The notes under the pieces: model-generated | Told to the model about the DNA's origin: nothing | Seen by the model: the letters and a program-made list of their open reading frames with translations, nothing else | Databases searched by the model: none | NCBI RefSeq assembly: GCF_009914755.1 | Contig: NC_060937.1 | Direction: 5' to 3' (one strand) | From: the human T2T-CHM13v2.0 reference genome, Homo sapiens | Length of the DNA stretch: 64,000 bases | Shown: one piece after another, positions 49,891 through 61,754 of the stretch | Layout of the letters: each line of letters starts with the position of its first letter | How positions within the stretch are numbered: the stretch's first letter is position 1 | Program-made: the position numbers and the translations under genes

Positions 49891-52800
49891 ATGTAAAATA
49901 AATGCATCATTACATTACCTAGAGTCAATTATATTGAGTTTCATTTTCCCTATTGATTACCTATTAAGTTGCTTCCAGTTTTACAGTATTTCCTACTGCC
50001 ATTCCTAGACTCATATCTGGACTGTTTCACAGTATCGACTTTAGAGAACATAGAGGGATAATCTTCGAAATAAAGAAATAATACTGTTCATTGATTTTAA
50101 AATCATATATATACACACACAAATAGTCAAAAAGTCATTTTAGCCAAAATGAATTCCATCTCAAAGAAAATAAAATAACGAAATGATACCATCAAAAAGA
50201 GATGAGAAAATGGAGGAAATGAATATTGGAAAATAGAGTCACTGACTTAATTGTTGGATTTCTAGTGAAGCAGGTAAACAAATTAAATTCTCTTCTGTAG
50301 AGTTATCCTATCTAGGGCCACATGTCTTTAACCTGGCACCAACAAAGTACTAAAACCATATAACAAAGCATTCTTTTATTAATTCCATATTCATCAAATG
50401 ATTTTCTGGTATACATTTGGGTCCTCATGTAACTTTGTCTATCTAGAAAGAACACTTTTGTTAATTTAAAAGGAATATTTCAGTTCCTACAGCATTTCTT
50501 TACATTAACTGGTTTAAGTACCGATCTCCGTTAGTTAATGTTAGTATACCCCTAACGAAAACTGGATTAATAATCAGGTATCTGGGCAGGAAATGCTGTG
50601 CCTCAGGGTCTACTAGCAGTGAGTGAGTAAGGAAATGATTCTTTGTGTCTTTCTGTAGTAAGGCATTCATAGCTTGTTTTACAAAGCATAATTATAGCTA
50701 CCAATATTTTGGAGCCATAGATCATCAGTAAAAGGCTATATTTGTGTGCAGAACGTTTGATATAAAAAGTTAAGACTTCTAATCTTATTTTGTTATAACT
50801 TTTCTAATTATATGCTATTGTATTTTCAGATATGAATACACACAATGAAAACAACTAAAAAGACAAAATTACCATTCACAGTTTGCCTTCTTTCCATCAA
50901 AAATTGGTCTCATGTCACATAAATGTAGTTTATTTTAGAGATGCAGTGTTCCTTTGTATTCATAGCATCATCACTCAAGATGGTAATTATTATGGTGAAC
51001 ATCTGGGTCATTACACTGGCTTATCCTTTTACAGATTGGTATGAAATTGGATCTTATCCTTAAGCTCCAATGTCTCTATGGCCCTGATAATGTTGAAAAT
51101 GCAGTCCTCACTGTACCTAACCTTAGGAAATGAATAAATGGCTATTTGGAGTCCTGGCTCCCTTTGTGCTTTTATATTCCTGAGGGCATGGCTTTATAAT
51201 ACTTCACAGAATAAGACTAATTGTGAAACATTTGGATGTAAGTTGATTTGGATGTCCTTGATTACACAACATCTGCATGTAAGACAATACATTATTTTCA
51301 ATTATGATTTTGTCAAGTTCTCAAAATATAGGATTGACTTTTAACTGCAAGTATTTCTGTGTGCTGGCATAATACCATTTGTGCTATTTTCTTATATTTA
51401 TTCTATGTATTAAAAGAGGATATTAAAAGGATTTTTGTGCTTACTTTAGACAATAATTTATTATGAAAGTTTACTCATAAATATGCTGGACAGTCATTTC
51501 ATAATAAAGTATGACATTCTTTCCTTTATGTCTCCCCAAGGGTAAAGATCATTCAAGCACAACTATCTCCTGTATCGGTATTTATTCACCTAAATAGACT
51601 GTTTTGGTTAAAATTTTAATGAAAAGTCATGCTTATATTACTGTATAATTTTGTATATGCATGAATATTTATCTGTTCAAAGTAGAAATGTAGTTGACAT
51701 GAAGGGATGTCTGCCTAGTTCACAAAAGTATGACCATGGAAATATCATTTCTATGATACTCCCTCATTAGGGAGCTATTCCTTTGTCACTCCAACCTTGA
51801 AACTGTCCCTGTGCAGTACTTTTTGATCCAAGTAATAGACCCATGATCTGAGAATAGTCAAAGTGCATCTCAGATTTTTAAGAGTTGGAGACAGTGAAGG
51901 TTTCACTTCTGATGGTATATGTTGTAAGAATGAGTCTGTATCTGTCAGTGCCAAATTAAGTAAGATGGAATAAGAATAAAGCTGATGCTCAGAGAAGGGG
52001 GAGTGAGAGTTAGAGGTAGTATTGACTATTGAAAATCCGTCCTGAGGTCAGACCCACAAATGCATTTTGTTATTTTATTTCAATACTGATAAAACCTTTT
52101 TATGGTTATAGTTCAAATTAGTTTTTTTCAATTTCAACTGAAATAACAGGTGTAAAAAACCACAAAAGTACCCCATTTCCCCTTGCAAATGTATTGCTCT
52201 GAAGCTAGAATGATGTTGAAATACTGGAGGTCAACCTAAAATGATACTATTTTACTGATGCCTTCATTTTTAGTATATTTTCCTTAGATTTTACAAGAGG
52301 TAAAAGCATCTACTATAGATGTGTTACCTTTTGAGGTTGCTTGTAGTCTTCATATCTGGTGTGTAGCTGCGACAGTGGAACACGATGGAAAGACTGGAAA
52401 TGATACAATTCCAAAAAGCTGTTTTTACAGTGTGAAGCCTAGCCTCAGAATAAAATTCCAATACTATCACGCAAAAAATTACTAGGTTTGCACCAAGTAT
52501 GAATAGGTTGGAAAACTAAAAAGGCCTATGAGGCCCTATAAGAACCACCTTATTAGTGTTTAATAAAGGTAAAGTACGACAGAAATAAAATGCAGGAAAT
52601 CATTGAAAGTCTGTCTTTCGGGAACAGAGCCTTTCTCCCTAAAGATCCTTTCTCAGTCTCACAGACACATTTTATCTGTATATTATAAACCTTCAAGATT
52701 TGAGCTTACTATAATAATTTAAGGGAAGTGCAGAAAAGTCTTTATAGCAGGCTCCCTCATACATTGTTGGTCATATACTTAAGCCAAGTTGTGTAAACCA

Positions 52801-53660
52801 TCAAACTAAACATTCTCAACGATGTAGACCAGTTGGCACTAAACTTAAAGCAATATATTATGAATCACTAACTAGCACATGCCATTTTCATCTTGCTCAC
52901 GGGTCAGTGTTATGCTTCCAATGCATTTCTAGATATAAATATTAAGCTATTCCAGTCCAACTGTAAGAGAGCCCTCCCTTATGTAGCCATACATTAACAT
53001 ATATGAGAATGTAAGATGTGTTGAAGAAAAAATATCAAAGGATTGAGAAACCTACATAAATTTTAAAAACAATTAAGAGAAGACCAGGCTATATTTAATG
53101 TCATCAAAGATAATTCTAGTGCATTTTCATTATTTTTTCACGTGGCTTTTCTTTCTTTTCCCCTTGACTGATTCTCTAACTAGTTTTAATCAATTTTATA
53201 GAATAATCTGCGTATAAGGCACACATTTTAGTCCAGTTCAGTTTTACAAATTTATGAAGCTAGTTAACCACCTACACAATCAAATATAGAATATTCCCTT
53301 CATCTACACATTTATTGTACGACCTTTACCAATGAATTCCCCACCTCAACCCCAGAAAGGTTTAATGCATTCTGTCTTTATATAATTTCAAATTTTATTT
53401 ACATGAAAGCATACAATATTTATTATTTAGTATCTGCCTTCTTTCCTCTAGTATATGACAAAAATTCACTTTTTTTTTTTTTGTACAAAGGAATGACAAT
53501 CCTTCAATTGTAAAAACTAAACATGCCACCCAACTAATCACATGCCTTAGGGTATATTTCTGAAAAATAAGATTCATATTTTAAAATCAACTTTATTAAA
53601 ACTCAGGGCTATTAAAGTATATATACAAATACAACACTAAAAAATAAAGTTACGTTTCCA

Positions 53661-54440
<780 letters not shown>

Positions 54441-54444
54441 ATAC

Positions 54445-55665
54445 CCCAAACCTTTGTCCCCCACCATTATTTCCCTACCTTCTTTTCCTGGCGGCCTTTG
54501 GCCCCCTCCCTCTCACCACTCTTTTTCTTTCACCATCTGCCCCCAAACTACTTCATCATTTTTTGCCCACCCTCATTTCACAAAGCTGCCTCTACTCTCC
54601 TGCTCAACACCCTTTTCCCCATGCATCTACCCAAACCCTTTCCCCAGTTTCTTCCCACTGTCTTTTCCCCTTATCCCTGGCCAGCCTCTTTTTCCCCATC
54701 CCGCTCTCATCCATCTCTTTTGCTCTCTCAACCATCTCTTTTGCTCCTTTATCTAAGCAAAAACATTTTCCCCCGTCTTTTCCCAAAACCTTCTCTCCAC
54801 TCCTGCTGCTCACTACCCTCTTTCCCCGCTTCATCCAACCAAAAACTGTTTTCTTCATCGTCTTTCCCCCCGTTCCTCCTTGCCATTCTCTTTCCCTTCT
54901 CCATCTACCCAAAAACATTTCCCCCGTCTTTTCACAAAGCCTTCTCCCCACGCCTATTCACCTCTCTTTCCCCCTCCATCTACACACCAAAACTTTCCCC
55001 ACCACCTTTTCAAAGTCTCCCCCCTTACCACTAGTGCTGTTTTTTCCCCTACCCTGCTTGCCACCCTCTTTTTTCCCCTCCATCTACCCCAAACTATTTT
55101 TCTGTTGTTTTCCCAACCGCCATCCCTGCTACCTCTCGCCACCCTCTTTCCTCCCTCCATCTATCGAAACACTTTTCACCCACTGTCTTTTTCTTTCTTC
55201 ACTGTCTTTCTTTTCTGCCACTGTCTTTTCACAAAACCTTGTCTTCCTCCTGCTGGCTACCCTCTTTTTCCTTCTCCCACTTGCTACCCTCTTTTGCTCA
55301 ACCCAAAAACTTTTCTCCCCCACTGCATTTTCTCCACACTGTCTTTTCACAAAACCTTCTCTCCCTACTGCTCCCCCCGTTTTCCCCCATCACCTCCCTC
55401 TCTTTCCTCCGCCCACTTGCCACCCTCTTTTCCCCCTCCATGTACCCTTAAACTTTTTACCCACCGTCTTTCTGCAAAACCTTCCTTCCCTCCCACTCCC
55501 CACCCTGTTATTACACCTCCATCTACGCAAAAACCTTTTTCCCCACCATCTTTTCACCACCATCTTTTTTCAATTCCTTCTCTGGCTAAGCTATCCTTTT
55601 TTCCCTTTGGCCCTAACTACCCTCTTTGCTCCCCTCTATCTATCCCAAAACTGTTTTCCTTCTCC
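54445..55665. repeat. Degenerate pyrimidine-rich tandem repeat, ~70-80 bp monomer
   Basis: Marker 'ccatctacccaaaaac.tttcccc..cgtcttttc.caaa.cc' recurs at ~54832, 54901, 54976, 55080, 55157, 55297, 55438, 55519 and 55635. Confidence 0.85.
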
Positions 55666-55831
55666 TGCCTCTCCAGCCGCGATGCTATCTCTCCGTCACT
55701 GCCAACAACTGCAATGAGGCGAGCCGCGCTCCCGCGGCTCCAGCCTCCAGCATATAGCCACCGAATCCTGATTCCTAGTCCTCTACGTTGGGCAATGAGC
55801 AACTCGACATGAAGATACAGGAACCTGAAAA

Positions 55832-56126
55832 AAAGTGATCGCACTTCAGCATCATTTATGTACTGCGGTAGTGCCCATGGAGGTTCCTGGACTGCATGTC
55901 TTGATTGGATGAGAAAAAAACCTCCAGGCTTACTCTGATTGGACTTTATGATCATGTTCTGATTGGATGAGAGCAAGTCTTAACACAACCAATCACAGCA
56001 TGAAAATAAAGTCCAATCAGAGTAGGCCTAGAGGTTTTTTTCTCATCCAATCAAGACATGCAGTCCAGGAACTGCATTTGCATAACCTCATATATAAAGG
56101 ATGCTGAGGTGGCGTCAGGTCATTTC
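55832..56126. promoter_or_regulatory. Putative bidirectional Pol II promoter: 6 CCAAT boxes, octamer, TATA, Inr
   Basis: ATTGG at 55904, 55938, 55962; CCAAT at 55989, 56013, 56047; ATTTGCAT 56076-56083; TATATAAA 56091-56098; Inr TCATTTC 56120-56126; minus-strand TACATAAA 55862-55855 and Inr TCACTTT 55838-55832. Confidence 0.7.
55883..56072. repeat. Inverted repeat: arms 55883-55966 and 55989-56072, 22-nt spacer
   Basis: Manual alignment: outer 42 bp perfectly complementary, inner 42 bp with 6 mismatches. Confidence 0.97.
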
Positions 56127-56451
56127 AGACTCTTCTGTGTCGAGTGGAGGAGCAACTCTGTGCCCAGCTTAGAGGACTGGAAGAGGCCGCAATCTTCCGC
56201 CTGCTGGAGGGTGGAGGATGGATGGAGCCTGGAACCTGGGTCACTACCTCGCTGCAGTTGGTGGTGGCGATAGAGCAGTAGGAGAGCATTCGGCAGCAGG
56301 AGCTTCTCCTGCTGGGCTGGAGGACTAGAAGGAAGAGGCACTGCCACATGCTGGAGGCTGGAACCTGTGCCACCATGGCTCGCCTCGCTGTGGTTGGTGG
56401 TGACATCGGAGACTGCAGCTCAGCCACAGTGGTAGAAATGTGATGGTGTAG
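56122..56451 (+). ncRNA. Putative first exon of a spliced lncRNA (BAGE-5'UTR-like)
   Basis: Inr 31 nt from the first T of the TATA box; consensus donor TAG|GTGAGT at 56451/56452; resemblance to recalled BAGE exon 1. No expression evidence. Confidence 0.45.
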
Positions 56452-56469
56452 GTGAGTTTTTCCGGGCCT

Positions 56470-57050
56470 GCCCTGTATGCCTCTGGGGGCAAGGGTTGGG
56501 TGTCCTATTGGGGTTCACTGCTAGAGGCTACCATGCCTGTGGCAGTGGTCTGGTTGGGGACACTCTCCGGGGTTGCGTTGCTGGTGGTGGGGCAGGTTGC
56601 CTGGCTATCTGGGGCTATACTGCCTGTGGTGGCAGGGGTGGTGGGGGGAGGCAGATTGTGTACAATAGCTTGTATTGCTGGTGGCTGGGGAAGGATTAGG
56701 GGCGCTATTTTCTGCTGCACTGCCCGCAGCAGGGAGTGGGTTGGGTGGAGTTATCCAGGGCTACAATGCTGGCGGGGGGGTGGTTTAGGGGCGTTGTTGG
56801 GTGCTACACTGTGACTGGAGGGGTGCACCATTAGGAGCTGAACTGCCTGTGGCTGGGTCAGATTGTGGGCACTATTGGGTGGTATGCTCCCTGAGGTGTG
56901 GGGGGAGTGTTTTTGTCAGGGGGTATTGGGGTTACATTGCCTGAAACTGTAGGGTGTGTTGGATGTGTTATCCAGGAGCTACACTGCTAGTGGCAGGGGG
57001 CAGATTAGGGGTGCCATGGGGGCTACACTGCCAGTGGCATTGGCGAGCTG
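56470..57050. repeat. Degenerate G/T-rich repeat (GGGGCTACACTGCC.GTGGCAGGGG motif)
   Basis: Motif variants at ~56524, 56611, 56758, 56799, 56928, 56976 and 57018. Confidence 0.7.
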
Positions 57051-57628
57051 GTGAGGTGGCAGCAGCAGTGACAGCAGTGGCTTCCTTCTTCTCGTAGCTT
57101 CCAAGTAAGGTATCGTTTTCTTCTTCTCAGACTCCAGACTCTAGAAGGCGATTTTCTTCTGCTCGAGCTGGATTGCATGGTAGGGCCTCCACACCCACTG
57201 TGGTTTCCCAGCCTGCCCTCATGCTTTGTGTTGCGAAGATCACGTGGGACTACCGGGCAGGGAGTAGTAGGCACCATGGGGGAAGTGGGAAACAGGGCAC
57301 TGTTGGTGGAGGTGTCAGGAATGGGAACCAGCCCTTTGGTGGGGAGGGCTGGCTGGGTCTTAGTTTCTCCTATGCAGGCTCCCGGAGGAGGACAGCCTTG
57401 GTGGGCCCAGCAATTCCTGGCCAGGTGTACTTGGCCAAGGGCCTGTTTCAGTGAAGGCACTCACTCCCACCCCAGGCCCCAGTTCCTGGCCAGCTTTTGC
57501 CAGAAGGAGAGGTTGGACTTTGGAAGGTGGGTGTGAGTGCCTTCAATGAAACTGATCCCTGACACCCAGTCACCAGCCTAACGAGGTGAGGCTCTAATGG
57601 TTCCAATCCCTGAGTCCTGTTTTGGGCT

Positions 57629-57781
57629 TTTCTGGCTTTGCCTGCCCAGCTGCTCCAAGCCACTCTGAATAAGGAGAAGGAGGAGTCGCCTGTGGTATGG
57701 TTGAGCAGATGCCGTGGCTCTGCAGCTTGCCTCATGCAGTTGGTGGTGGAGATGGAGACCATAGCTAGAATGGAGCGGTAG
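57629..57781 (+). pseudogene. BAGE-like reading-frame remnant without start codon
   Basis: Translates [24 protein letters not shown]...; recalled BAGE peptide is [29 protein letters not shown]. In-frame TGA at 57611-57613 and no ATG before the homologous part. Confidence 0.6.
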
Positions 57782-58521
57782 GAGGGCACCCACGGGGGCT
57801 TGGTGGTAGGAGCCTGGTAGAGTGGGCTGGTACATTGAGGGTGACTGGTTGTATTGGCATTGGTGCTAGTGGTGGTAGCAGTAGGAAGTCTGGGGGCCGG
57901 GAAGGGGGAGTAGGAGCACTGCAGGGCCCATCCCGTTCTGGGGTGGGGAGGAACCTGTGGGTGCTGTAACGAAGGTCTCGGTGGCAGTGGTGGTGGTACA
58001 CCTAGGGCAAAGAGGAGTCCTCCCCCTTCTCCTGCAATCTCTGGAGTGTGCCCTCCTCCTGCCGGTGCCTGAGCTAGGCATGAGTGGCAGCATTATCTCA
58101 TTCTTAACAAAATTTAGTGACTATTTGTGTATCCTTTTGCTTGTTTTTTGTTGTGATACTCTTGGAGTTACTCAAATTTTATGAATCGAGGAGGGGATAA
58201 AAAGTATTATATGATAGGCCTTCTAATTCCCACACCTGTTCTTTTTCCTTTCTTCCATTGTGTTTTCTTCTCATTTTCTTGTTCCTCTTCATTTTCTTTT
58301 GCTACTGCTTCTATTTCATGTTTCTATTCTTGTTTCTCCTCCTGTTTTTGTATTCTTATGCCAAGCAATGGCCTTAACCACCAAAACTGAGTTAAAAATA
58401 AAATACTTGTCACTGTTGTGTTTTTTAAATAACTGATCCCTTACTATGTTTTAGAGATGAGGAAAAAAAATGAGTTGTATAATTAGTTACTTGAATAGTT
58501 ATGCTTTCATAATTGTGTTAA

Positions 58522-60377: not shown

Positions 60378-60504
60378 ATTTTTTAGTAGAGACAGCGTTT
60401 CTCCGTATTGGTCAGGCTAATCTCGAACTCCTGTCCTCAGGTGATCCTCCCGCCTTGGCCTCCCAGAGTGCTGGGATTACAAGCATGAGCCACTGCACCT
60501 GGCC
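60378..60504 (-). mobile_element. Alu left arm only (AluSp-like)
   Basis: 'tttctccgtattggtcaggct..tctcgaactcctg.cctcaggtgatc'. Confidence 0.9.
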
Positions 60505-60641
60505 TACAAATAGGTTAAATTATTTTATAAATTAGCTGTTGTTTGTTTTGCCTACTTTCAGACTTCTGGATTTTTTTTAAGTATGAAGGATTTCAATTGT
60601 TATATTAATATAAATGCTTAGATAAATAGCACAAACATGAA

Positions 60642-60926
60642 TTTTTTTTTGACAGAGTCTCACTCTGTTGCCCAGGCTGGAGTGCAGTGGCAGAATCTCA
60701 GCTCACTGCAACCTCCACTTCCCAGGTTCAAGCAATTCTCGTGCTCAGCCTCCCAAGTAGCTGGGATTACAGGCATATGCCACCATGCCTGGATAATTTT
60801 TGTATTTTTAGAGACGGAGTTTCGTCATGTTGTCCAGGCTGATCTCGAGCTCCTGGCCTCAAGTGATCTGCCCGCCTTGGTCTCCCAAAGTGTTGGGATT
60901 ACAGGTGTGAGCCATCACACTTGGCC
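60642..60926 (-). mobile_element. AluS SINE
   Basis: Antisense dimer. Confidence 0.95.
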
Positions 60927-61024
60927 AACTGTATTCTTTATGAATTTTTTTACATCAAAAAGCTCATTTGTAATATTTTCTGTATGTATACATGCTATAA
61001 AATTTATTTTGTTTTATTTTAACT

Positions 61025-61150
61025 TTTTAAAAATAGAGATGGGGTCTGATTGTTTTGCCCAGCCTGGTCTTGAATTCTGGGCTCAAGTAATCCTCCCACC
61101 ATGACCTCCCAAAGTGCTGGGATTACAGGCATGAGCCACCATGCCCAGCC
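61025..61150 (-). mobile_element. Alu monomer (FLAM/AluJ)
   Basis: 'agagatggggtct...ctgggctcaagtaatcctcccacc...gggattacaggcatgagccaccatgcccagcc'. Confidence 0.85.
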
Positions 61151-61754
61151 TGTAAAATTTATTGTAAAGGAAAAGGCATATTTTCATTAAGCTGATAATC
61201 TTTACATAAATACTGAAGCATGGCATATTTCTTTATTCTACTTGGGCTATTTTGTGTTGCATTAAGAAGAATTTTTTATTTGTTTTTTCTTCTTACTATG
61301 CTTGTTTCTGGAATACTCCTTTCCTCCCTTATCTTCCAAACTCTACTACATCTAAATTTATCCTATTTTTCAAGGGTTTGATCACATATTACGTCATCCA
61401 GGAAGTGTCTCTCCTATTCCCTCTTCTCCAAAATGTATATTTTCTTTTTCTGGAAACTCTTGATCCTTTGCCTCTAGACCATAAGCCCTTTGTAGGCGTG
61501 TCTGTATCTGAGTTTTTAAATTTTTTTTTCCTCTTTTCTCACTCCCAGAATAACACCCTGTGCCAAGGAGTAGTAGATACTTGTTGAATGCATAAAAGAG
61601 CTTAGCAGCTAGAGTTAGTGTGGATGCTGTAGAAGATGTCTGATACACATATGGCAGTTTGATGCTGAATAGTTTTTGGAAATTAAAAAACAGGTAGAAA
61701 TTTCACCAATGTCAGTGACTAACATAGCTGTAATTAGTAAATTATCAAAATGTT

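What the first reader, a model, noticed from the sequence alone, without database searches (positions are those of the whole stretch)
55660..56300. A palindrome that is itself a two-faced promoter: six mirror-symmetric CCAATCA boxes
Seen: 84-bp inverted arms (55883-55966, 55989-56072; 78/84 identical) around a 22-nt spacer. Each arm has three CCAATCA boxes spaced 24 and 34 bp. Weaker inverted homology continues outward through the TATA, Inr and transcribed-leader motifs to about 55660 and 56300. Established: CCAATCA is the NF-Y motif, and REP522-type GC-rich repeats lie at pericentromeric duplication junctions. Inference: an inverted duplication of one promoter-plus-first-exon unit made a portable divergent promoter. 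Copied by segmental duplication, it could seed new spliced lncRNA or chimeric gene pairs wherever it lands.
Basis: partly seen in the sequence, partly recalled or inferred. Interest (0 to 1): 0.82.

Follow-up and report, generated by a model that had tools for sequence, protein, structure and literature searches.

The report
Old mirrored CCAAT promoter in REP522 repeat
The palindrome is real, but it is one of about 60 copies of an old human repeat (most likely REP522) whose mirror-image CCAAT/TATA core starts a non-coding RNA here and sits at the start of the BAGE cancer-testis genes elsewhere.

Summary
Inverted homology reaches 55690 and 56412.

It did not form at this locus. The same palindrome occurs at 60 loci of the assembly. 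A tree of 64 half-arms separates all right arms from all left arms with support 1.0. So there was one old inverted duplication.

The family is most likely REP522. A chr15 paralog holds the hsa-miR-5701 string, which a preprint places in "Rep522". A chr21 paralog carries the BAGE start codon and donor 333 nt from its palindrome centre.

The palindrome diverges 2.5-3.3 times more slowly than its flanks at non-CpG sites. The CCAAT positions are the best kept (P=0.00025).

The RefSeq lncRNA starts 19-27 nt after the end of the right-arm TATA box. NF-Y binding and a minus-strand start are untested.

Verdict: a member of a known repeat family and a likely methylation-silenced divergent promoter cassette. 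Moderately interesting, not categorically new.

The parts
54400..55650 (.). Left flank of the repeat unit: C/T-rich on the + strand, with degenerate tandem units about 76-125 nt long. It is homologous to other family copies but is not an inverted copy of the right flank.
   Evidence: (D1-D6)
55690..55882 (-). Left outer arm, the mirror of the right leader. TATA-like CATAAAT at 55854-55860 (family consensus TATATAAAT). Inr-like TCACTTT with its A at 55836. The paralogs' GGAGCG|GTAGGA motif reads AGGCAGGA here.
55883..55969 (-). Left palindrome arm with three CCAAT boxes (TGATTGG at 55902, 55936, 55960).
55970..55985 (.). Its sequence and orientation are conserved across copies.
55986..56072 (+). 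Right palindrome arm with three CCAAT boxes (CCAATCA at 55989, 56013, 56047). This is the best conserved part of the family (0.938 match to consensus).
56090..56098 (+). TATA box TATATAAAG. TATAWA is present at this position in 23 of 39 non-redundant copies.
56117..56451 (+). First exon of LOC124907023 (RefSeq starts 56117 and 56125; Inr-like TCATTTC at 56120-56126). It ends at the strong donor GTAG|GTGAGT at 56451/56452. GT at that position is kept in 25 of 39 copies. It contains an internal direct duplication, 56194-56266 / 56341-56402.
   Evidence: Hub annotation
56460..57900 (.). Right flank of the repeat unit: G-rich on the + strand and homologous to other family copies.
   Evidence: (D4, D7-D9)

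Best explanation
The window holds one copy of an old, dispersed human repeat unit, at least 3.5 kb long here and most likely the family that RepeatMasker calls REP522.

Its centre is a divergent promoter cassette. A unit of three CCAAT boxes, a TATA box, an initiator and a G-rich leader exon with a splice donor was duplicated in inverted orientation once, before the family spread. Segmental duplication then carried the cassette to about 60 pericentromeric, acrocentric and interstitial sites.

In this copy the right arm is the promoter and first exon of lncRNA LOC124907023. The left arm keeps the boxes and an initiator-like motif but has a weakened TATA box and no annotated transcript.

Inferred, not shown: the boxes are bound by NF-Y, the loci are silenced by DNA methylation and H3K9me3 in somatic cells, and they fire in germline, early embryo and hypomethylated tumours, as described for BAGE and for REP522 RNA.
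For: Family and copy number:
- An 801-nt query gave 114 matches in the assembly (101 candidates, 40 scored).
- A 27-nt arm string with up to 3 mismatches gave 92 hits and 0 for the reversed control. I grouped these by hand into 60 loci, 32 of which have hits on both strands about 87 bp apart.
- All 60 fetched loci match the core in both orientations.

Single origin:
- The half-arm tree used 32 of the 39 non-redundant copies (64 half-arms). Seven copies with a half shorter than 120 nt were dropped.
- All left arms form one exact clade against all right arms, with support 1.0.
- The asymmetric spacer is conserved in one orientation.

Constraint:
- In 39 non-redundant copies the match to consensus is 0.905 and 0.938 for the arms and 0.917 for the spacer, against 0.75-0.83 for the flanks.
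- CCAAT positions score 0.971, against 0.921 +/- 0.017 for randomly placed pentamers (P=0.00025).
- Pairwise divergence at non-CpG sites, palindrome versus outer arms: 0.040 vs 0.106, 0.056 vs 0.185 and 0.119 vs 0.298 in three sets.
- Against the kb-scale duplicated flank: chr17 3/190 vs 5.2% (P=0.01); chr7 6/190 vs 8.1% (P=0.005).

Promoter use:
- The RefSeq starts at 56117/56125 lie just downstream of the TATA box (hub table).
- A strong donor is conserved in 25/39 copies.
- In the chr21 paralog L061, ATG GCA GCC GGA GCG|GTAAGA lies 333 nt right of the palindrome centre. An exon with an AG acceptor then encodes 34 residues identical to BAGE1 residues 6-39.

Link to REP522:
- The chr15 paralogs L054 and L055 contain the exact 19-nt hsa-miR-5701 sequence inside an arm.
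- A preprint states that miR-5701 overlaps the "Rep522 repeat" (passage).
- Ward et al. describe a large REP522 region at the BAGE locus, covered by H3K9me3 in human liver (passage).

Expression context (passages seen):
- REP522 RNA rises at the 8-cell stage.
- REP522 is enriched in lncRNA exons.
- BAGE loci are methylated in normal tissue and hypomethylated in cancers.

Composition: GC skew flips sign at the palindrome, so transcripts leaving in either direction would be G-rich.
Against: - No binding, CAGE or RNA data could be consulted. LOC124907023 is a predicted model.
- No minus-strand transcript starts at the left arm in the annotation given. The nearest minus-strand lncRNA starts at 52528, outside the repeat unit.
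- The TATA-to-TSS segments evolve as fast as the outer arms (0.096 vs 0.106 at non-CpG sites in the young subfamily). The constraint is therefore on the CCAAT array, not on the core promoter, and a role other than transcription initiation is possible.
- Only 16 of 39 non-redundant copies keep all six boxes. TATA boxes are kept in 23/39 (right) and 25/39 (left). BAGE-type copies have lost the right TATA box.
- The chr20 comparison was not significant: 10/190 vs about 7.5%, P=0.15.
- The backgrounds include CpG sites and Alus.
- Flank alignments of distant copies are gappy: 1808 columns for sequences of about 820 nt, with occupancy 0.72-0.92.
- Copies share ancestry, so the permutation P-value overstates independence.
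- REP522 membership rests on two literature statements about paralogs, not on a library match.
Confidence: 0.68

Rival explanations
1. Inert repeat. The palindrome is a neutrally decaying piece of a satellite-like repeat. The CCAAT/TATA look is incidental. Its slow divergence reflects low mutability (no CpG, AT-rich) or hypermutable G-rich tandem-repeat flanks. The lncRNA model reflects transcriptional noise.
For: - The core has 0 CpG while the flanks have 10-22.
- The flanks are skewed tandem repeats that align poorly.
- 23 of 39 copies have lost at least one box.
- The chr20 comparison is not significant.
- No functional data were available.
Against: - The slow-down persists when CpG sites are removed, and within a young subfamily where the alignment is unambiguous (0.040 vs 0.106).
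- The CCAAT positions themselves are better kept than the rest of the CpG-free arms (P=0.00025).
- The RefSeq start sits at the canonical distance from the TATA box.
- The BAGE start codon and donor lie in a paralogous right arm.
Confidence: 0.14
2. Same cassette, different reader. The conserved array is bound by factors other than NF-Y. Candidates are paired-like homeodomain factors of embryonic genome activation (the outer boxes read TCATCCAATCA, one mismatch from the DUX4 consensus as I recall it) or PBX/TALE factors. It may act mainly as an enhancer or boundary rather than as a start site.
For: - Conservation covers the whole 190 nt, including the spacers between boxes (0.911) and the central spacer (0.917), not only the pentamers.
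- The TATA-TSS segments are not constrained.
- REP522 RNA peaks at the 8-cell stage (passage).
Against: - All six boxes carry the full CCAAT pentamer with a CA(G) 3' flank. From recall, this is the NF-Y preference.
- The middle and inner boxes are 2 and 3 mismatches from the recalled DUX4 motif (my reading).
- No binding data for any factor were available.
Confidence: 0.1
3. Structural element. The palindrome matters as DNA structure: a cruciform or hairpin that stalls replication and promotes breakage. That would explain why such repeats sit at duplication junctions. Promoter features would be secondary.
For: - Very stable hairpin (-85.1 kcal/mol; z = -20).
- Several paralogs lose homology inside or at the centre of the palindrome. 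The chr15 copies break at the homolog of 55776. L040, L048 and L056 have unrelated left halves.
- A 58-62-nt deletion between the internal direct repeats removed two left boxes in the chr9 copies.
Against: - In this window the duplicated sequence continues on both sides of the palindrome, at least 9.5 kb to the left with chr7 and at least 7.9 kb to the right with chr20.
- Structure alone does not need CCAAT pentamers to be the best kept positions.
- The arms have kept fixed arm-specific differences, so there has been no arm-to-arm homogenisation.
- This reading can coexist with the promoter reading.
Confidence: 0.05
4. MicroRNA precursor. The palindrome is transcribed and processed like hsa-mir-5701, which is annotated on a chr15 paralog.
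For: - Hairpin potential.
- The exact 19-nt miR-5701 string lies in an arm of L054 and L055.
- Papers report effects of miR-5701 mimics (passages).
Against: - The window copy differs at 3 of 19 positions, including the seed.
- Only 2 of the 60 family loci hold the exact string.
- No Rfam family reached its gathering score. The sub-threshold hits are plant miRNA and leader models that match any long hairpin.
- The annotated starts point outward from the palindrome, so it is not part of the lncRNA.
- The discovery table lists the candidate with the number 2 in its last column.
- The "mature" string overlaps the inner CCAAT box.
Confidence: 0.03

Closest known systems
REP522 (Repbase/RepeatMasker repeat family, classed as a satellite or unknown repeat)
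   Same: - Paralogs of this element are the loci that papers label REP522. These are the hsa-mir-5701 loci at 15q11.2 and the BAGE locus on chr21.
- The distribution is multi-copy, pericentromeric, acrocentric and subtelomeric.
- REP522 is reported as enriched in lncRNA exons and expressed in 8-cell embryos and tumours (passages).
   Different: - A direct match to the REP522 consensus could not be run.
- REP522 occurs in 14 papers of the library. I read its passages in 5 of them, and none describes a palindromic CCAAT/TATA core. A sixth showed no occurrence in its main text.
- The Repbase entry itself was not available.
BAGE (B melanoma antigen) cancer-testis genes: 5' end
   Same: - A paralogous palindrome with six CCAAT boxes (L061: ATTGG at 2545, 2578, 2602; CCAAT at 2629, 2653, 2686) lies directly upstream of the BAGE start codon and donor (2950-2964).
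- Its orientation is the same as exon 1 of LOC124907023.
- The next exon encodes BAGE1 residues 6-39 exactly.
   Different: - The window copy has no BAGE reading frame and uses a different donor (56451/56452).
- BAGE-type copies are only 72-78% identical to the window core and have lost the right TATA box.
- The BAGE transcription start was not seen in any accessible paper, so "the BAGE promoter is the palindrome" is an inference from position.
NF-Y-dependent bidirectional promoters, such as Mrps12/Sarsm with an array of four CCAAT boxes
   Same: A compact region under 200 bp, with several CCAAT boxes in both orientations between divergent starts (PMC1802594, title and abstract start seen in the listing only).
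   Different: - Here the two halves are true mirror copies from a duplication.
- Both sides also carry TATA boxes.
- The unit is a mobile, multi-copy repeat rather than a single-copy housekeeping gene pair.
- NF-Y binding is untested.
hsa-mir-5701 (miRBase entry at 15q11.2)
   Same: Its 19-nt mature sequence lies in the arm of a paralogous palindrome, over the inner CCAAT box.
   Different: The window arm has 3 mismatches out of 19. The hairpin is most simply the promoter palindrome itself, so the miRNA annotation may be incidental.

Membership tests
REP522 repeat family | Match to the REP522 consensus (RepeatMasker/Dfam) | not testable with these tools
   No repeat library is on hand. Rfam holds no such family.
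REP522 repeat family | Homology to loci that the literature labels REP522 | tested here: met
   The chr15 paralogs L054 and L055 hold the exact miR-5701 string, and a preprint says miR-5701 overlaps the Rep522 repeat. The chr21 BAGE paralog L061 aligns to window 54500-57472 at 68-74%, and Ward et al. report a large REP522 region at BAGE.
REP522 repeat family | Multi-copy, pericentromeric, acrocentric or subtelomeric distribution | tested here: met
   60 loci on chr2, 5, 7, 9, 10, 13, 14, 15, 17, 18, 20, 21 and 22. Their placement relative to centromeres relies on recalled CHM13 coordinates.
NF-Y (CCAAT-box) divergent promoter | Intact CCAAT pentamers with NF-Y-type flanks | tested here: met
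   Six CCAATCA boxes. The family consensus is CCAATCAG or CCAATCAC. The flank preference itself is recalled, not from a call.
NF-Y (CCAAT-box) divergent promoter | Proximal box about 60-100 nt upstream of a transcription start | tested here: met
   The box at 56047-56051 lies 66-78 nt upstream of the RefSeq starts 56117/56125 (hub table). The position rule is recalled.
NF-Y (CCAAT-box) divergent promoter | NF-Y occupancy | not testable with these tools
   No ChIP data are accessible.
NF-Y (CCAAT-box) divergent promoter | Transcription starts in both directions | tested here: inconclusive
   The plus-strand start is annotated. No minus-strand start is annotated near 55836. Left TATA and Inr-like motifs are present but the TATA is weakened here. 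The left TATA is kept in 25/39 copies.
mir-5701 microRNA gene | Mature miRNA sequence present | tested here: not met
   3 mismatches out of 19 in the window arm. The exact string is found only in L054 and L055.
mir-5701 microRNA gene | Precursor-like hairpin | tested here: met
   -85.1 kcal/mol, z = -20. No Rfam family reaches its gathering score.
BAGE gene family | Exon 1 (MAAGA/MAARA plus donor) and exon 2 reading frame | tested here: not met
   No BAGE-type frame in window 54160-57960 (L001). It is present in L033, L038/L061 and L058.

The most novel reading that the evidence does not exclude
The REP522 core is not junk satellite. It is a selectively maintained, methylation-gated divergent promoter module, read by NF-Y or by an embryonic homeodomain factor. 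It is kept at dozens of duplicated loci, fires at embryonic genome activation, in the germline and in hypomethylated tumours, and has repeatedly supplied a promoter, a first exon and a splice donor to new genes. BAGE is the clearest case, alongside many pericentromeric lncRNAs. On this reading the reported "miR-5701" is a by-product of the promoter palindrome.
Probability: 0.35. Interest if true: 0.6.

Novelty: new member of a known kind. Interest (0 to 1): 0.42.

Why it matters
If the reading holds, it gives a named but uncharacterised repeat family a concrete role.

- One old mirrored CCAAT cassette would explain why REP522 is over-represented in lncRNA exons.
- It would explain why REP522 RNA appears in 8-cell embryos and tumours.
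- It would show where the BAGE cancer-testis genes got their 5' end.
- It would explain why a "microRNA" is annotated on a promoter palindrome.
- It would be a clear example of segmental duplication spreading a ready-made promoter, first exon and donor.

The slower evolution of the CCAAT array at many paralogs is unexpected for pericentromeric duplicated DNA. It can be tested with existing NF-Y ChIP, CAGE and long-read data remapped to T2T assemblies.

Tried and rejected
- Rfam scan of 55600-56500 at E<=1. Only sub-threshold hits to plant miRNA and leader models, on both strands. I read these as generic hairpin matches.
- Test for a much larger palindrome. The flanks 54400-55650 and 56460-57700 are not inverted copies (score 22 versus 25.6 +/- 1.9 for shuffles).
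- Search for a BAGE reading frame in the window copy. None found.
- Exact search for the BAGE nonamer in all loci. None found, because the first five residues lie in a separate exon.
- Paper searches for a prior description:
  - REP522: 14 papers, none with a promoter description in the passages read.
  - HSREP522: 0 papers.
  - BAGE with CCAAT / NF-Y / "BAGE promoter": nothing relevant in the 15 rows listed.
  - Bidirectional promoter + palindrome + CCAAT + segmental duplication + pericentromeric: one irrelevant paper.
  - PMC1581429 is not held.
- The ungapped comparison of L001 with L002 and L003 was meaningless because of indels. It was replaced by BLAST.
- Regions of 20 kb were cut to 10 kb, so each paralog's long flank was seen on one side only.
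Full report
**1. The observation**

- The tool extends the arms to 87 nt at 92% complementarity.
- Three TGATTGG boxes (55902, 55936, 55960) mirror three CCAATCA boxes (55989, 56013, 56047), with spacings of 34/24 and 24/34.
- The whole window holds 11 such heptamers on both strands, and 6 are here.
- As single-stranded DNA the segment folds at -85.1 kcal/mol, z = -20 against shuffles.

Two of the three boxes in each arm share a 20-nt direct repeat 58 nt apart (D12). The box array therefore grew by a small internal duplication.

Inverted homology continues outward.
- The window matches itself in reverse over 55772-56182 at 76%.
- 55690-55783 pairs with 56320-56412 at 78% (score 45 versus 25.5 +/- 1.4).
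- The register shift comes from a direct duplication within the right arm (D10, D11, D13).

Further out the flanks are no longer inverted copies. The GC skew still flips from about -0.75 to +0.4 at the palindrome.

The core is AT-rich (41% GC) and has no CpG.

**2. It is a family, not a local event**

- An 801-nt query found 114 matches in the assembly (101 candidates, 40 scored).
- A 27-nt arm string with up to 3 mismatches found 92 sites, against 0 for the reversed control.
- I grouped the 92 sites into 60 loci. In 32 of them both arms were hit about 87 bp apart.
- The loci lie on chr2, 5, 7, 9, 10, 13, 14, 15, 17, 18, 20, 21 and 22. Many are on acrocentric short arms and near centromeres; that placement is recalled, not computed.
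- Identity to the window ranges from about 100% (chr21, chr14) to about 70% (chr5).
- All 60 fetched loci match the core in both orientations.
- Family homology in the window runs from about 54400 to 57900. The upper limit is partly set by the flank length I fetched.
- The unit sits inside larger duplications. Homology with chr7 runs at least 9.5 kb to the left. Homology with chr17 runs 4.3 kb to the right, and with chr20 to the window end.

**3. One ancient inverted duplication**

I collapsed cores that were at least 97% identical, leaving 39 of 60. I kept the 32 copies in which both halves were at least 120 nt and built a tree of the 64 half-arms. Seven copies were dropped for truncated halves.

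All left halves form one exact clade against all right halves, with support 1.0. The subfamily order is broadly mirrored within each side. The central spacer is asymmetric and is conserved in one orientation in all copies.

So the palindrome arose once, before the family diversified. Its arms have since evolved independently, without arm-to-arm homogenisation.

**4. Evidence for constraint**

In the 39 non-redundant copies:
- Match to consensus is 0.905 (left arm), 0.917 (spacer) and 0.938 (right arm).
- The TATA-TSS segments and outer arms score 0.75-0.83.

The 30 CCAAT positions score 0.971. Randomly placed pentamers within the arms score 0.921 +/- 0.017 (P=0.00025).

Pairwise divergence at non-CpG sites, palindrome versus outer arms:
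- Young subfamily (9 copies): 0.040 vs 0.106.
- chr2/14/22 type (6 copies): 0.056 vs 0.185.
- All 39 copies: 0.119 vs 0.298.

Against the kb-scale duplicated flank:
- chr17: 3/190 differences vs 5.2% (P=0.01).
- chr7: 6/190 vs 8.1% (P=0.005).
- chr20: 10/190 vs about 7.5% (P=0.15, not significant).

Caveats:
- Copies are related, so the tests overstate independence.
- Distant flanks align poorly.
- The long-flank backgrounds include CpG sites and Alus.
- The TATA-TSS segments are not slowed (0.096 vs 0.106).
- Decay is visible. Boxes are intact in 28, 26, 30, 32, 37 and 35 of the 39 copies, and all six in 16/39. TATA boxes remain in 23/39 (right) and 25/39 (left).

**5. Promoter reading**

On the right arm:
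- TATATAAAG lies at 56090-56098.
- An Inr-like TCATTTC follows, with its A at 56122.
- The RefSeq starts of LOC124907023 are 56117 and 56125 (hub table).
- Exon 1 ends at a strong donor, GTAG|GTGAGT, at 56451/56452. GT at that position is kept in 25/39 copies.

On the left arm, read on the minus strand:
- The mirror motifs are CATAAAT (family consensus TATATAAAT) and TCACTTT with its A at 55836.
- The motif GGAGCG|GTAGGA of most paralogs reads AGGCAGGA here.
- No minus-strand transcript is annotated from this arm. LOC124907022 starts at 52528, outside the repeat unit.

**6. What the paralogs are**

*miR-5701.* The chr15 copies L054 and L055 contain, inside an arm and over the inner CCAAT box, the exact 19-nt string that two papers tabulate as hsa-miR-5701 at 15q11.2. 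A preprint states that hsa-miR-5701 overlaps the "Rep522 repeat". The window arm differs at 3 of 19 positions.

*BAGE.* In the chr21 copy L061:
- The six boxes lie at 2545-2690.
- 333 nt to the right of the centre comes ATG GCA GCC GGA GCG followed by GTAAGA.
- About 1.5 kb further on, an exon preceded by an AG acceptor encodes 34 residues.
- These 34 residues are identical to residues 6-39 of BAGE1 as printed in a paper's appendix.

Ward et al. describe a large REP522 region at the BAGE locus that is covered by H3K9me3 in human liver and active in the Tc1 mouse. BAGE loci map to chr9, 13, 18 and 21, are methylated in normal tissue and are hypomethylated in cancers. This fits the positions of the 72-78% identity copies.

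REP522 RNA is reported to rise at the 8-cell stage, to be enriched in lncRNA exons and to appear in tumour and ES-cell sets.

For all these papers I saw only the passages returned by "find".

**7. Interpretation**

The best reading is a REP522-family divergent promoter cassette. It consists of a mirrored array of CCAAT boxes, a TATA box and initiator on each side, and a G-rich first exon with a donor. It was carried around the genome by segmental duplication. It is used here for a lncRNA and elsewhere for BAGE.

What is shown:
- the anatomy;
- the family and its single origin;
- the slower evolution of the array;
- the coincidence with an annotated start;
- the position of the BAGE 5' coding exon.

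What is inferred:
- methylation-dependent silencing of this copy;
- activity of the left arm;
- that BAGE transcription starts in the arm.

The rivals are an inert repeat, another transcription factor, a structural or fragile palindrome, and a miRNA precursor. They are weighed in their own sections. The structural reading can coexist with the promoter reading.

**8. Novelty**

The element belongs to a named repeat family, and divergent CCAAT promoters are a known class (for example PMC1802594, seen in a listing only).

I found no open-library description of the REP522 core as a mirrored CCAAT/TATA promoter, of its single origin, or of its identity with the BAGE 5' end and the mir-5701 hairpin. 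I could not see Repbase or Dfam notes, the original BAGE papers, the supplements, or the NF-Y papers listed.

Noticed in passing
L002 (chr21:9.095-9.098 Mb) and L003 (chr14:7.267-7.271 Mb) versus window 54160-57960: The copies on the chr13, chr21 and chr14 short arms are 99.63% and 99.66% identical over 3.8 kb. This fits recent exchange between acrocentric short arms.
   Followed up: partly
L011, L013 and L066 (chr15:18.6 and 19.98 Mb); homolog of window 55776: In the chr15 copies, homology to the window stops inside the left outer arm at the homolog of 55776. There the palindrome sits at a duplication junction. In this window it does not.
   Followed up: partly
L024, L025, L041-L044 (chr9); homolog of window about 55895-55952: A 58-62-nt deletion removed the two outer left boxes. 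It lies exactly between the 20-nt direct repeats that flank boxes 1 and 3, which suggests slippage or recombination between those repeats.
   Followed up: no
L040, L048, L056 (chr21:11.86, chr13:18.10, chr18:14.80 Mb): The left halves are unrelated to the family (long branch in the tree). The break is at the palindrome centre.
   Followed up: no
window 56357-56434: Exon 1 of the lncRNA holds an ATG in a very good Kozak context (GCCACCATGG) that opens a 22-codon frame (MARLAVVGGDIGDCSSATVVEM). Similar short frames recur in many paralogs. The WRLEP-coding stretch, which is also part of BAGE, recurs in another frame.
   Followed up: partly
window 54450-55650 versus 56400-57000: Strong mirrored GC skew around the palindrome, about -0.75 on the left and +0.4 on the right. 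RNA leaving in either direction would be G-rich. The left flank consists of degenerate C/T-rich tandem units.
   Followed up: partly
L054: 1825-1843 (chr15:18.857 Mb): The annotated mature hsa-miR-5701 sequence ends on the inner CCAAT box of a promoter-like palindrome. The discovery table lists it with the number 2 in its last column. The miRNA annotation may be incidental.
   Followed up: partly
window 53650-54320 and 60380-61160: Alu-like repeats in inverted orientation on either side of the repeat unit. The homology with chr17 ends at 60380.
   Followed up: no
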